Assembly: GCA_038087875.1 (NCBI GenBank)
Contig: CM075989.1
Coordinates: 14,448,001-14,512,000, forward strand
DNA from: Malacoraja senta
Taxonomy: Eukaryota
Direction of reading: 5' to 3'
DNA length: 64,000 nt
Shown in pieces: positions 2,777-62,600 of the stretch. Numbering within the stretch: the first letter of the stretch is position 1; the number at the start of each line of letters is the position of its first letter. The position numbers and the translations under genes were made by a program. Below the pieces are notes generated by a model. The model was not told the DNA's origin. It ran no database searches and saw only the letters and a list, made by a program, of their open reading frames with translations.

Positions 2777-2887
2777 GTCTCGACCCGAAACATCACCCAT
2801 TCCTTCTCTCCGGAGATGCTGCCTGACCAGTTGAGTTACTCCAGCATTTTGTGTCTATTAAACCAGCATCTGCAGTTCTTTTCTACA
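2777..2887 (+). mobile_element. Short Penelope-derived 3' module, truncated within the hammerhead motif
   Basis: gtctcgacccgaaacatcacccattccttctctcc...gagttactccagcattttgtgtc; flanked by near-direct repeats cattcactatt (2766-2776) and cattccctatt (2888-2898). Confidence 0.8.
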
Positions 2888-3725
2888 CATTCCCTATTTC
2901 CGTTTTATTACAGCATGGGAACATTGTTTTCAAACAAACAGCATCTATAATGAGTCCTGTTTGAACAATTATGCACAGTGTTTATTGATGTTCAATAGTT
3001 ATGAAGTTTTCTTTACAGAAGATTCAATAGATTGTTTAAAAGTGTTCTGCCAAGAGAAATTGATTCCACTTTAACAATCAGCAAATAATTTTACAAATTT
3101 GAAAACCTTTGCCAAAATATATTACAAAGCAAATCATTCTGCCCCCTGAGTGATGAAAACCCCACAGCTCCAGTCTCAGCACTACCTTTCTGAAGACCAT
3201 TTTTTCTCTAGAATACACATTTACACTAACTGTCCTAACCTTGTTTGATTTCCCAAAATACATTACCTCAACTTCTCAGGATTAAATTTCATCAGCCTAA
3301 CTTTCCTTCTGATCGATATCTTGCCTTGGACAACTTTCCTCTCAAAATGCCGACTGGAATTTTTACAAGTAACCAGTGTGTCATGCCGTTTTCCGGGGGG
3401 AGGGGGGCATCGAACATTGGGAAAATAATTAATATATAACTTTATTCATCTAGGGATTAACCTTTATTTATCAGGATTATGTTTATAAACAATCTAGAAA
3501 AAGAAGAAATGGAGTAGAATCACGGATTTTCCGTCTCTACGGCATCAAAGTAGCGGGACACCAAAGTAGACACTTACTGATGAGTCACACGGTACCAATA
3601 ATTTTAATTTTACAGTACAGGAAGTTAAAACTGCATCTAACATCAGCAACCTATCAGAATGCACAATGATCTCCCAATTGTGAAATCTTGACGATCATCG
3701 ACCAATATTTATATATCTCAGCTAT

Positions 3726-4516
3726 AGGGAGGTTGCACAGCAGTCGGGTCACGACCCATGACCCGTACTGTTGCTACGCTACTCCAACTAGATTACACGC
3801 GATGAACTGCAGGTAAGCACTGACCATTGTTCCCAGCGTAGCGGGCCCGTTAAAACCCGCCGAAATGGTCAATTTTTGCGCTGTAAATAATTATGGAAAT
3901 ATTGGGATTTATCGCGTTTGCTCACTGCATTTCATCAACTAAGGCATTATTTGTGTTTTTTCTTTATTCCTTTGGCATCTAAAAAGTTTCAGAAAGGATA
4001 AATCTGGCTGTAAAATTTTAAAATCGCCCACGGTTCTCGTGGGTTTTTACATACAAAAAGAAAACGCCTCTGAAGCAACATTTACAACCAGATTTATCAC
4101 TTCTGAGACTTTTTAGATACCAAAGGAATCAAGAAAAAACACAAATAATGCCTTACTGTTGATGAAATGCAGTGAACAAACACGATAAATCCCAATATTT
4201 TCAATTCCGATATCTGCATTGCCAATGTACGCCAAGCACTTTAGCTGCTGTTGTCCCTTCAGCTGTCGCTTCTCTTTACCTTCATTTCGCTTCACTTTTG
4301 GAATTCTGAAGTTGGGTACATGTCTCTCACACTTACACCGATTTCCACAATTTTTACAGCGCAAAAATTCAACATTTTGGCGTTTTTTAACAGGTACGAA
4401 AGTACGCGTTTCATGTATTAACAACATATACCGGAAGTGACGGATGTCCTCCAGATGGATTGAGCGGCTCCGTGCGTCAAGCACTATGACCCAGTGACCT
4501 TACGTGCAACCCCCCT
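3726..4516. mobile_element. Non-autonomous fold-back DNA transposon with THAP-domain remnants (ISL2EU-like)
   Basis: 13-bp TIRs agggaggttgcac / gtgcaacccccct-type with 1 mismatch, flanked by AT on both sides; internal inverted repeat 3897-4014 vs 4081-4200; THAP-like MxNFCAV...CGNR...FRIP...YRVCSLHF on both arms. Confidence 0.75.
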
Positions 4517-4594
4517 ATTCAGACTCAGAGTTTAGTGTTTAGTTTTTACTTCCTCACTGTTTATTTTACTTTAATCCTATTATTATTACATTCT

Positions 4595-59044: not shown

Positions 59045-59572
59045 CTACCGTGTACAAAATCATGAGTGGAATAGATCGGGTAGATGCCCAGAGTAGGAGC
59101 AATGAGAATCAGAGGACATAGGTTTAAGGTGAGGGCGGAAAGATTTAATAGGAACATGAGGTATAACTTCTTCACACAAAGGGTAGTGGGTGTATGGAAT
59201 GAGCTTCCGGAGGAGATAGTTAAGGCAGGAATTATCGTAATGTTTAAGAAACATTTAGACAGGTACATGGATGGGTAGGACAGATTTAGAGGGATATGGG
59301 CCACATGTAGGCAGGTGGACCTAGTGCAGATGGGACATGCTGTTCGTTGTGGGTAAGTTGGGCTGAAGGGCCTATTTCCATGCTGTTCGTTGTGGGTAAG
59401 TTGGGCCGAAGGGCCTATTTCCATGCTGTTCGTTGTGGGTAAGTTGGGCTGAAGGGCCTATTTCCATGCTGTTCGTTGTGGGTAAGTTGGGCTGAAGGGC
59501 CTATTTCCATGCTGTTCGTTGTGGGTAAGTTGGGCTGAAGGGCCTATTTCCATGCTGTATCACTCTATGACT
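59045..59572 (+). mobile_element. CR1 3' end
   Basis: VYKIMSGIDRVD..RGHRFKVRAERFNRNMRYNFFTQRVVGVWNELPEE. Confidence 0.88.
59336..59550. repeat. 43-bp tandem repeat, 5 copies, inside the CR1 3' UTR
   Basis: catgctgttcgttgtgggtaagttgggctgaagggcctatttc at 59336, 59379, 59422, 59465, 59508. Confidence 0.95.
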
Positions 59573-61314
59573 CCATCAATCTAGTGCGTTTTGTAGATGA
59601 CATTCAGGGCAGCAAGAGTTCCCTGGTGGAAAGGGGTGATTGCTTGGGGTGGTGGAAGGGATACATTCAAACAGGTTGCTCTTCCCCGAGTGGGACAAGC
59701 ACGTTCGTTGTTAGTAAAGCTGCACTCGTCTGGGCAAAGCTGTGCTCGGAGGTTGATGAAAATGCTTCGAGGAGTCTGCAAGGTACCCAGTCTCTACAAT
59801 GGTTATGTGGCTGCTCCAATAAAGGTTCAAGCCAATGGTGACACCAACCACTACCTCACCCCATCCCCAGAATGTTGCGATTAAAGGGTTAAACTCTCCG
59901 TGTTTGGAGGTGGTCATTGCCCGGTCCTTGTGTGGCACAAGTGTTGCGGACACTTGTCACGCCGTGCCTGAATCTCGTCACGGTCCAGATCGAAGTCTTG
60001 CTGTTCATTTGTCAATGAGGATTGGAGCACAAACTCTCGGGGAGCTGGCTGGCAGCTACATGGTGAGGTTAGTTTCATAGCTATTTATTGACTGTGTCCT
60101 TCTCACTATTGTTTCTTCTGCTGCACTTGCAAGCTGGTGGGGGCTTTTGGATGCCAATTAGTAGGTTTTCTGCTCATTCAAGCTCAATAATTCCTGTAAC
60201 TATAACTAAGAAGCATTAACTTGCATGATGTGAAAGATGGTGCTTATTTCATGGTTAATTCCGTTGTGCAGCTTGTGTTTGGGTTGATGCTCTTGATTCA
60301 TAATGCGTTTGCAGGCTGCGCCGAGACCCAAGTGTGTTATTTGATTCAAATATTTTGCACAGTAATGGATGTTTAACCCAGAGTGAGCTGAGCACCATTC
60401 ATGGCCATCACTGTCTGTTATTGCATTCGTTCAGGTCCATGAGCCACCATTTATTGCTACTTGTGGCTCACATTTTCTGTAGTGGGTTAGCTGCTCAGAA
60501 TCAATTTGTTTAATTGGGAGATGAGTATTTGGCTCCCTTGTGGCCGGGCTGTAGAAGGATCTGCCTCTTCCTGTTTAAAATGAGAGGGTGGAGGCTTAGA
60601 GGGCAACTGAGGGGGACTTTTTGTACTTGGATCTCGAAAGCCTTGCTTGAAGAGGAAGAGGTGGTGGAGGCAGAGACTCACAACATTTAAGAAGCATTGA
60701 GATGAGCACTTGAATCGCAAAGCTATAGAGGGCCACGGATTATTGCAGGTAAATAGGGTTGGTGTCAGTATGTTCGTTGAGTAACACACACATGGTGGGC
60801 CAAAGGACTTGTTTATTTGCCCAATTACTTTATAATTCCAATCAGGTCGAGAGACAGGGAAGAACTAATTACGATTTTTGTCAGTTGGTATTTAGAAATA
60901 ATGGTAAATTGATCCAAATGGCTTTGAAATGCATTAATCATTTTTTTAATCTGCATCTATTAGAGAGTTTAAAACCACTTCTCGTTCTGAAATTGCTGCT
61001 TTCCTGAAAAAGATATGGTTATTTTTATGCGAATTTATGTGAATCACGATATTTCTACTTGTAACCTTTAGAATATTTCACCATCAATGAGAAATTTTAC
61101 ATGGACAGCACATCAATATTTCAGTAAAAGATTATATTCAGTGCAATGGATGCCAGTTAGAACAGTGATTATCCTTCCTTACGCCAGCTGATGCTGCTTT
61201 GATCATGAACACACACAAATAGCAGTTAACCTGACCTCGGACTGAAAAATGAATCGAGGAGTTAAAAAAATAATTGAATTTTCCTTCCCTAGGAACAAGC
61301 AAATGTTTCACAGA

Positions 61315-62600
61315 TTCATAGAGTCACAGAGTTATACAACACTGAAACAGGCTCTTTGACCCAACTCATCCACACGGCCAAAGTGCTTTCTGAGCTAGTC
61401 CCATTTACTTTCATCTGGCCCATATTCCTCTCAACCTTCCCTAATCTATGTATCTGTCCAAATGTCTTGTCAGCCTTGTAATTGTATCTGCCTCTAGTAT
61501 CTACCTGTTCTATATACCCACATCCTTCTGAGTGCAGAACCTGCCCTCAGGTACCCTTCCCTAACTGGGGAACAAGACTGTACCTCTACCACATCCCTCT
61601 GTAGATCTCTATAAAGTTACCCCTCAGCCTCCTTCACTCCAAGGAAAACAGACCTGCTCTGCCCAGTCTTTCTTCATAACTCAAGCCCTTCAATTTAGCC
61701 CACATTGCTGTGAATCTTTTCTTCACTCTCCCTACCTTAATCACATCCTTCCCATAGTATGGCAACCAGAACTGCACACAATACCCCAGGTATGGCGTCA
61801 GCAACAATATATACAACCGTTAGATGACATCTCAATTCCTACACTCAATGCCTTTACCATATGCCTTCTTCATCAATGTCTACCTGTGTCACCACTTTCA
61901 GGGAAGTATCTACTTGTATCCCAGGATGTCATTGTCCAGGAGCACTCCGCTGGCCTCCACGCCTGTATCCATCTATCACTCGCTAGGCTTTCTCCAGCAC
62001 CTCCTCTCTTCCAGCTTTCCCCCCACCGCCAACAAAATCAGTCTGAAGAAGGGTCCTAACCTGAAACGTCATGTTCTCCAGATATGCTGCCTGACTCCTT
62101 GAGTTACTCCAGCACTTTGTGTCTTTATTTGTAAACCAGCAAGCCCCAGGACTCTCATCACTTCCTGGGCCTTAACATTCACTGTATATGTCCAGGCCTA
62201 GTTTAACTTCCCAAAATACATCTCTTTACATTTGTCTGAGTTCAGATCCATCGACCTGCTTGTCCACTGTTGTAACAGATACTGTTATGACCCAATGAAT
62301 GCAACCTTCTTCACTGTCCAATTTTGGTGTCTTCATTATACTTACTACTCATACCATCCACATTCTCACGTAAGGTGCAATGTTCTCTGTAGTTCCCTTG
62401 TTTAACCCCGCTGTCCTAATTGAATAAAGACGCAACATTAGCCCCCCTTCAGTCTTCTGGAACCTCATCTATGGCTATTAAAGATACAATTATCTCTGCC
62501 GGGGTTCCAGCAGTCACCTCACTTGCTTCCCACAATGTCCTAGGAAACATTAGACACTCCCTGGAGATTTATCCACTGTCTTGTACAATAATCTATCTAC
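61315..62600 (-). mobile_element. Long decayed CR1 fragment interrupted by a Penelope tail (about 61945-62140, plus strand)
   Basis: PYLGYCVQFWLPYYGKDVIKVGRVKKRFT..GLSYEERLG; ctgaagaagggtcctaacctgaaacgtc at 62043. Confidence 0.78.

What the first reader, a model, noticed from the sequence alone, without database searches (positions are those of the whole stretch)
2777..62140. Dense family of Penelope 3' modules carrying a minimal hammerhead ribozyme core
Seen: about 16 copies (near 2777, 9072, 11300, 12350, 16279-, 18259, 30491, 31560, 34010-, 38576, 40942-, 46093, 47842, 49065-, 57771-/57812+, 62043) give the consensus CTGAAGA-A-GGGTC-nn-GACCC-GAAA-CGTC. This is CUGAnGA + stem II + GAAA + palindromic ACGU + GUC triplet. 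The stem II loop varies (TC, CT, TT) while the stem is mostly kept. The motif lies sense and downstream of GIY-YIG ORFs at 8435-9203 and 16214-17400. Known: Penelope-like elements carry minimal type I hammerheads thought to cleave as dimers through a palindromic helix III. Inference: a very high-copy ribozyme-derived repeat in this lineage. No copy here matches the consensus perfectly, and helix I pairing is only about 2 bp.
Basis: partly seen in the sequence, partly recalled or inferred. Interest (0 to 1): 0.7.

Follow-up and report, generated by a model that had tools for sequence, protein, structure and literature searches.

The report
Penelope retrotransposon ends with minimal hammerhead
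This very abundant short repeat in a skate- or ray-like genome is the end piece of a known kind of jumping gene that carries a known miniature self-cleaving RNA motif; the copies here are decayed, and the only fresh point is that many begin at one sharp position that may mark the element's transcription start.

Summary
Real, but a known kind. The window holds 25 copies (E<0.01, none in a reversed control) of a 90-135-nt pseudo-LTR piece of Neptune-type Penelope-like elements; the nearest named protein homologues are from skates, rays and sharks. Its head fits the published minimal type I hammerhead consensus. Relatives from metagenomes carry the same motif at the same place (39 of 58 loci, 0 antisense), with compensatory changes in helices I and II. 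No window copy is intact. Loop 'variation' is mostly CpG decay, helix I is only 2 bp, and RNA reads from a related species show no cut-site pile-up, so cleavage is untested. New detail: many copies start abruptly 2-3 nt before the core, at an initiator-like TCAGT, often after a G. Coral-type relatives have a TATA box at matching spacing. I infer that these solo pieces are run-off copies of the element's uncleaved 5' leader, not just truncated 3' ends (about 45%). This scan already reported the same kind of motif in shark genomes.

The parts
2777..2889 (+). Module copy, 5'-truncated inside helix II (no CUGAAGA), with tail
8427..8883 (+). Decayed C-terminal Penelope ORF (CX4CX2C linker + GIY-YIG), frameshifted; subfamily A
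8884..9065 (+). Pyrimidine-rich pLTR spacer of subfamily A (TATAT at -32 from C3)
9066..9205 (+). Module with min-HHR (C3 at 9072; G12A plus 1-nt insertion) and tail
11294..11386 (+). Solo module, internal deletion removes GAAACGUC
12349..12470 (+). Solo module starting at C3 (12350), flanked by a 15-bp target-site duplication (12338-12352 / 12465-12479, overlapping the element's first 3 nt)
16214..16312 (-). Module with min-HHR (C3 at 16306, predicted cut between 16279 and 16278); subfamily C; ends at about +91, no tail
16313..16404 (-). Pyrimidine-rich pLTR spacer of subfamily C
16405..17414 (-). 5'-truncated Penelope ORF: RT C-terminal part, CX4CX2C linker, GIY-YIG (PF01541); frameshifted
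18253..18379 (+). Module (C3 at 18259); its pyrimidine-rich spacer (about 17661-17944) is split off by an inserted inverted-repeat element
29663..29845 (.). Old head-to-head pair of modules (29707-, 29767+), core no longer recognisable
30341..30622 (+). Subfamily A spacer + module (C3 at 30491) + tail
31554..31653 (+). Solo module (C3 at 31560; A13G) inserted in a CR1-like 3' end, with target-site duplication (31547-31556 / 31660-31669)
33910..34040 (-). Solo module (C3 position 34034), with tail
36757..36819 (+). Old partial module
38570..38666 (+). Solo module (C3 position 38575), ends at about +91
40854..40975 (-). Module (C3 at 40969), about 13 nt of spacer
46087..46228 (+). Best-preserved solo module (C3 at 46093; core and ACGU intact, first pair of helix II broken), with tail
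46292..46479 (.). Head-to-head pair of modules (46366-, 46369+) joined at a 14-bp palindrome
47836..47869 (+). Core only, after a long pyrimidine-rich spacer; 3' part lost
48965..49095 (-). Solo module, subfamily B (C3 at 49090), with tail
54023..54116 (-). Decayed module lacking CUGAAGA
56484..56703 (.). Old head-to-head pair (56567-, 56605+); 56567- reads CUGAUGA (N7=U)
57677..57931 (.). Head-to-head pair (57804-, 57806+), both starting 3-4 nt before C3; the + copy is interrupted by a CR1-like piece and resumes at about 57947
62036..62159 (+). Module, subfamily B (C3 at 62043; core, helix II and ACGU kept, helix I lost by deletion)

Best explanation
The repeat is the pseudo-LTR head of several Neptune-type Penelope-like retrotransposon subfamilies in a skate/ray-like genome. 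Its first 31 nt are the known minimal type I hammerhead (shown by anatomy and cross-lineage covariation). The element's RT starts copying inside the RNA at two sites, about 63 and about 100 nt downstream of the predicted cut. This gives the two 3' ends and the tail (inferred from the Anolis element). The RT used uncleaved RNA, since copies span the cut site and none starts at it (shown). After insertion the copies decay neutrally, mainly by CpG deamination, and are probably inert (shown for decay, inferred for inertness). In the active master element the ribozyme most likely cleaves weakly after GUC, as a dimer through the ACGU palindrome and/or with help from the element's protein (inferred). 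The reason is that helix I is only 2 bp and downstream sequence is predicted to sequester the core.
For: Two copies follow RT/GIY-YIG remnants in sense. Closest named homologues are skate, ray and shark proteins at 63-79%. The CX4CX2C linker is the Neptune/Nematis mark. Published consensus NNN CUGANGAH G..C GAAAN palindrome NUH matches. Of 80 relative loci, 58 have at least 300 nt downstream; 39 of 58 have a sense min-HHR 74-153 nt past the projected ORF end, 0 of 58 antisense; the commonest equals the published Acropora Neptune motif. Across 24 sequences 88% of cells pair, 6 of 7 pairs change on both sides, covariation 0.674 vs at most 0.144 when slid. Core mismatch is 13 of 187 vs 198 of 1255 in the 3' flank (P=0.0008). 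3' ends cluster near +88-91 and +123-133, like the two RT starts in PMC11167929. There are four head-to-head pairs and two target-site duplications. CpG columns mismatch at 62 of 173.
Against: No activity is shown. 0 of 25 copies keep core, helix II, ACGU and helix I together. Against non-diagnostic flank columns the core excess is not significant (13 of 187 vs 102 of 1001, P=0.22), and the seeds were picked by core match. Covariation comes from the skate-versus-relatives contrast, a few lineages, not from window copies. The third pair of helix I is unpaired in 11 of 24 rows. Folding favours an alternative structure by about 6 kcal/mol, with helix II probability at most 0.23 in 6 of 7 real copies. 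RNA reads of a related species show no pile-up of ends at the cut. Rfam does not recognise the motif. Neptune assignment rests on a motif and the nearest ribozyme, with no RT tree.
Confidence: 0.88

Rival explanations
1. Addition to the main reading: most solo modules are run-off copies of the element's capped 5' leader. Transcription starts at the A (or G) of an initiator-like TCAGT 2-3 nt before C3. RT starts at the 5'-proximal site and runs off the RNA end after 95-135 nt, sometimes copying the cap as an extra G.
For: In reads and contigs of related species, loose 5' ends with unrelated flanks pile up at -2 and -3: 664 and 674 RNA reads, agreement 0.32-0.34, about a quarter of local depth; 452 contigs at -2 in one DNA run. 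Of 12 window copies without a long spacer, 11 begin within 9 nt of C3, and the next base is G in 8 by script (9 by eye); P=0.009-0.013 for 8 of 12 at junction -2/-3. Extra G marks cap copying in L1/SVA. In coral-type relatives ATAAA lies at -35 to -37 in 48 of 57 copies, putting a start near -7. L075 shows ORF, spacer, TCATTT, hammerhead, then the next ORF about 150 nt on. TCAKTY precedes 9 of 56 published motifs (by-eye count).
Against: The G count is post hoc; without three inverted junctions and one TSD case it is 4 (5 by eye) of 8, P=0.06-0.22. The loose-end consensus starts with the cap-type letter in X22 at -2 and X1 at -3, but not in the RNA run. No pile-up of RNA starts (table 6). None of 57 coral-type copies starts at the predicted site, though these loci were picked by their ORF. 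Subfamily spacers diverge at the same point, which inflates the edge. No clean TATA box in the window's subfamilies.
Confidence: 0.45
2. The sharp 5' edge is an RT stall or microhomology hot spot at the outer end of helix I, or at the start of the pyrimidine-rich spacer, during ordinary 5' truncation of 3'-end copies.
For: The edge at -2 coincides with the last pair of helix I. Both copies with a TSD show microhomology at the 5' junction. 5' truncation is the rule in these elements.
Against: A 2-bp helix is a weak block, and the RT has passed stronger helices downstream. It does not explain the G excess or the conserved TATA spacing in relatives.
Confidence: 0.35
3. The spacer between the ORF stop and the core is the pLTR intron (AG|GT at the ORF end, pyrimidine tract and CAG| just before the core), as in Drosophila virilis Penelope.
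For: AG|GTAAC and AG|GTAGT at both ORF ends and a pyrimidine tract + CAG in all long copies. The D. virilis intron ends at helix I. One frame is open through the module.
Against: No RNA joint with more than 1 read among the 15 best-supported of 422 joint rows shown. No window copy has the ORF end joined to the core. The 5' edge includes the G or AG, which a splice acceptor would exclude.
Confidence: 0.15
4. The motif is a non-catalytic relic in this lineage: sequence kept as promoter and RT-binding signal, while helix I has eroded and cleavage is lost even in master elements.
For: The third helix I position is unpaired in the majority consensus, whereas most relatives have 3-6 bp. The core is predicted to be sequestered. 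No cut is seen in RNA. Cleavage is dispensable for the Anolis element in vitro.
Against: All catalytic positions are kept in the majority consensus of every subfamily examined, with variation at N7. Published motifs with a 2-bp helix I exist. The Anolis ribozyme cleaves only with protein and also shows no cut in RNA-seq.
Confidence: 0.25

Closest known systems
Minimal hammerheads (min-HHR) in pLTRs of metazoan Penelope-like elements (Cervera & De la Pena 2014, PMC4209133)
   Same: CUGANGA + one extra base + G-C-closed helix II + GAAA + palindromic dinucleotide + UH; sense, in the pLTR; mostly single motifs from truncated elements.
   Different: Helix I is only 2 bp (U-A, G-C). No shark, skate or ray name in the readable supplement. 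Density here is 1 per 2.6 kb, roughly 10^5-10^6 decayed copies per genome, versus up to 9,000 descriptor-passing motifs in Xenopus (not like for like).
Acropora digitifera Neptune min-HHR (same paper, Fig. S3 and Table S1)
   Same: 4-bp helix II with 4-nt loop and CGUC end; same position about 97 nt after the ORF; endonuclease 42-50% identical; 19 of 28 core-region bases shared.
   Different: N7 = C, helix II GGGC/GCUC, 3-bp helix I; downstream 100 nt unrelated (0.57 vs shuffled maximum 0.59); clear CCAAT and TATA boxes upstream.
Anolis Poseidon element PAc (Frangieh et al. 2024, PMC11167929)
   Same: Two 3' ends separated by a 30-40-nt tail downstream of the ribozyme; copies made from uncleaved RNA; no cut seen in RNA-seq.
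   Different: Poseidon clade without the Zn-finger linker; its ORF starts in helix II, whereas no start codon opens a long frame in this module.
Non-LTR retrozymes of animals (Li et al. 2026, bioRxiv 10.64898/2026.07.22.740005)
   Same: PLE pLTR-derived, non-coding, type I hammerhead; reported in one cartilaginous fish.
   Different: Retrozymes are head-to-tail tandem arrays; the window's copies are dispersed solos or head-to-head pairs.

Membership tests
PLE min-HHR | Core CUGANGA ... GAAA ... UH | tested here: met
   Majority consensus; 81-94% of depth in 4 runs restores the one non-consensus base (15.2) of the laid copy. Individual copies are decayed.
PLE min-HHR | Extra base after A9 and G10.1-C11.1 pair | tested here: met
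   A in 19 of 19; G10.1 in 16 of 19.
PLE min-HHR | Helix II supported by compensatory change | tested here: met
   3 of 4 pairs change on both sides across lineages, 94.8% of cells paired; not within the window alone.
PLE min-HHR | Palindromic 15.1-16.1 (ACGU) instead of helix III | tested here: met
   CG in 4 of 21 copies, 16 of 21 are its CpG decay products; CG dominant in relatives.
PLE min-HHR | Short helix I flanking the core | tested here: inconclusive
   2 bp, with compensatory G-C/C-G against relatives; third pair unpaired in 11 of 24 rows.
PLE min-HHR | Lies sense in the pLTR of a PLE | tested here: met
PLE min-HHR | Self-cleavage after NUH as a dimer or with protein | not testable with these tools
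   No pile-up in 6% of one polyA RNA run of a related species; this does not test catalysis.
EN+ Penelope-like element | RT followed by C-terminal GIY-YIG in one ORF | tested here: met
   16405-17414 aligns to residues 575-867 of a 902-aa RT+GIY-YIG protein.
EN+ Penelope-like element | 5' truncation, inverted partners, optional 30-40-nt tail | tested here: met
Neptune clade | CX2-5CxxC linker before GIY-YIG | tested here: met
   CNRRKCYTC in the window ORF; definition (shared with Nematis).
Neptune clade | RT phylogeny groups with Neptune | not tested
   No reference set at hand.
Non-LTR retrozyme | Head-to-tail tandem units each with a hammerhead | tested here: not met
   No tandem of the module in the window.
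Rfam hammerhead families | Scores with an Rfam hammerhead model | tested here: not met
   No hit at E up to 10; the published Acropora-type motif is also missed, so this says little.

The most novel reading that the evidence does not exclude
In skates and rays the hammerhead sits at the very start of the Penelope transcript, and internally primed reverse transcription runs off the capped 5' end. This has made roughly half a million SINE-like copies of promoter-less leader per genome, possibly among the most numerous hammerhead-derived repeats known. Their 5' edges record the start site and cap, and cleavage would act as a decapping switch between mRNA and template.
Probability: 0.4. Interest if true: 0.5.

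Novelty: new member of a known kind. Interest (0 to 1): 0.27.

Why it matters
As it stands it extends a 2014 finding to skates and rays at very high density. If the start-site reading holds, it ties the internal-initiation mechanism shown in vitro for the Anolis element to a genomic footprint. It would also give a testable role for Penelope hammerheads, whose function is still called unclear (PMC8557442): removing the capped first 31 nt of the element's RNA.

Tried and rejected
Exact-pattern search of the window with a mis-spaced pattern: 0 matches, replaced by fuzzy and profile searches. Rfam: no hammerhead hit. No whole genome is held, so there is no genome-wide count or consensus. Exact core pattern in metagenome and viral contigs: 0. 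Endonuclease relatives in viral contigs: none. Sequencing-run search: no RNA holder listed. The covariance model finds 19 window hits at E up to 1 but was built from 13 of them, so it is circular; it found no unrelated hammerhead family. Loop variation as covariation: rejected, mostly CpG decay. Copies starting at the cut site: 0 of 25, and no step in depth there. Strand depletion upstream of the cut in polyA RNA: ratios 0.97, 0.93, 0.91 across the site, library orientation unknown, uninformative. A DPE-like match at +28 and an 'LLQH' likeness to a relative's N-terminus were noticed but do not recur in relatives and were dropped. Lunse et al. 2017 is not held; it is known only from a review's passages. 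The GenBank supplement of PMC11167929 and the image of its Fig. S2, which could show 5' ends in Anolis, were not readable.
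Full report
Observation. A profile built from 14 copies found 25 copies at E<0.01 on both strands; the reversed window gave nothing better than E 2.5. The hits cover 4.2% of the window, one per 2.6 kb. The majority consensus reads CUGAAGA-A-GGGUCUCGACCC-GAAA-CGUC, then about 63 nt to a first 3' end and about 100 nt to a second. 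No copy keeps core, helix II, ACGU and helix I together. CpG columns are the most damaged (62 of 173 cells). The ACGU palindrome survives in 4 of 21 copies, and 16 of 21 show its deamination products. The loop variants TT and CT are what TCG and CCG decay to, so they are not evidence of covariation.

Host and element. Two copies lie sense behind GIY-YIG remnants, 189 and 99 nt after the stop. The longer remnant also covers the end of the RT and aligns with a 902-aa RT+GIY-YIG protein. Its closest named homologues are from a skate (79%), a stingray and sharks (63-66%), so the genome is probably a skate or ray (inference). The linker has CX4CX2C, the mark of Neptune/Nematis rather than Poseidon. 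At least three subfamilies are present: two ORF remnants are 71-73% alike, the spacers before the core are at shuffled-level identity in 5 of 6 pairs, and the core region is 75-86% alike. Four head-to-head pairs, two 3' ends about 35-40 nt apart and two target-site duplications complete the Penelope picture (described in passages of PMC8557442).

Is it a hammerhead? It fits the published metazoan consensus, including the extra base after A9, G10.1-C11.1 and the palindrome in place of helix III (PMC4209133: I read parts 1-2 of 4 of the text and parts 1-2 of 3 of the supplement). Eighty metagenome loci with relatives of the endonuclease (42-50% identity; best 80 of 487) give an independent test. 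Of the 58 with at least 300 nt downstream, 39 have a sense motif with at most 2 deviations 74-153 nt past the projected ORF end, and 0 have one antisense. The commonest is the published Acropora Neptune motif. In an alignment of 13 window and 11 relative sequences, 88% of cells pair and 6 of 7 pairs change on both sides; the covariation score is 0.674 against at most 0.144 for slid partners. These are a few lineages, not 24 independent events. Within the window the core mismatches at 13 of 187 cells against 198 of 1255 in the 3' flank (P=0.0008). Against flank columns that do not separate subfamilies it is 102 of 1001 (P=0.22). This is the pattern of selection on master elements and neutral decay of copies. 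A zebra shark protein model ends in SLMKG where the window frame reads SLKKG, which implies change at the free position N7.

Activity. Not shown. Helix I has two pairs, and the third is unpaired in 11 of 24 rows. Folding prefers pairing of the core with downstream pyrimidines by about 6 kcal/mol. In 6% of a polyA RNA run from a related species, 12,385 reads lay on 16150-16950; both strands covered the module about equally and no pile-up of starts or ends was listed. That suggests passive read-through of dead copies. The Anolis element behaves alike: it cleaves only with its protein, uses uncleaved RNA as template and shows no cut in RNA-seq (PMC11167929, parts 1-2 of 4 read). Here too copies span the cut site and 0 of 25 start at it.

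Abundance. Six runs from four studies and four organism codes hold half or more of the stretch's words; one may be the source. Depth on the module is 10-15 times the adjacent spacer bin and about 5-7 x 10^5 times the single-copy flank in two DNA runs. The tool warns that this is no copy number, and the spacer is subfamily-specific. The window's density points to the same order, 10^5-10^6 decayed copies.

The 5' edge. Loose ends with unrelated flanks peak at -2 and -3 (664 and 674 RNA reads; 452 contigs at -2 in X22); ends at -4 and -5 continue into other subfamilies' spacers. In the window 11 of 12 copies without a long spacer begin within 9 nt of C3. The A at -3 is the +1 of an initiator-type TCAGTC (consensus recalled). 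Coral-type relatives have CCAAT and, in 48 of 57 copies, ATAAA at -35 to -37, which places a start near -7. L075 shows ORF, spacer, TCATTT, hammerhead and the next ORF. D. virilis Penelope also has its promoter in the pLTR (passages of PMC2377424). The base before the start is G in 8 of 12 copies by script (P about 0.01), as expected from cap copying (passages of PMC3287187). Without four special junctions it is only 4 of 8 (P about 0.2). Against this reading: the RNA run's loose consensus does not begin with the cap-type letter, no RNA starts pile up, and none of 57 coral-type copies begins there (a sample biased to long insertions). I put it at 45%. An RT stall is the main rival. An intron reading found no RNA joint among the 15 of 422 rows shown.

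Known or new. Minimal hammerheads in PLE pLTRs were described in 2014. PLE-derived retrozymes are reported in one cartilaginous fish (bioRxiv 2026.07.22.740005, parts 1-2 of 5 and passages). Searches pairing Penelope with skate/chondrichthyan, shark, Amblyraja, Leucoraja and elasmobranch (listings only, plus passages of PMC6155905) found no description of this family. One search on start sites found nothing on a start-site edge. The library lacks most subscription papers and Repbase. This scan reported the same kind of motif three times in shark genomes. Verdict: a new member of a known kind, interest 0.27.

Noticed in passing
window 17945-18252: About 300-bp element with terminal inverted repeats, inserted into a pLTR spacer 5 nt before the hammerhead core; looks like a non-autonomous DNA transposon.
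   Followed up: no
window 12930, 19676-19843, 35736, 40150, 47212-47379, 62854-63021 (+); 7804-7900, 52872-52966 (-): Another dispersed family (D10, D12, D18) that resembles the V-SINE core of elasmobranch HE1-type SINEs (name recalled, not tested).
   Followed up: no
window 27933, 31168, 37362, 47894, 55323, 57917, 58529, 58750; ORF pieces 25217-25705- and 26188-26775-: Many CR1-like LINE 3' ends and ORF fragments (family name recalled); they nest with the Penelope modules in both orders (31560+ sits inside one, 57812+ is interrupted by one).
   Followed up: partly
window 22294-24078 -: 594-aa open frame with RVT_1 and zf-RVT hits, an L1/Tx1-like ORF2 C-terminus in good condition.
   Followed up: no
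window 39801-40089 +: Third, strongly decayed Penelope RT fragment with no module attached, followed by a SINE-like piece.
   Followed up: partly
window 11666-12130, 49625-49912, 56937-57438, 59293-59601: Tandem arrays with periods 42, 32, 36 and 43 nt; the 43-nt array derives from a CR1-like 3' end.
   Followed up: no
window 57798-57807: On the minus strand the 9 nt before the core of 57798- match the module's own tail, as a tail-to-head template jump would leave; may be chance.
   Followed up: no
runs X18 and X22 on window 16215-16311: Contig joints return from -3 or -5 into the module or its 3' end (depth 149-993, some with one extra G in element sense), suggesting short head-to-tail tandems elsewhere that could form dimeric ribozymes; only 12 of 346 such rows were shown.
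   Followed up: no
P0002: A skate gene model named receptor-transporting protein 3-like ends in a Penelope GIY-YIG segment: a read-through mis-annotation or an exonised fragment.
   Followed up: no
run X24 on window 16393-16930: Reads over the ORF part are 2-3 times biased to one strand (antisense to the element if the library is the usual stranded type), unlike the module.
   Followed up: no
window 33521-33720: Assembly gap of 200 N.
   Followed up: no
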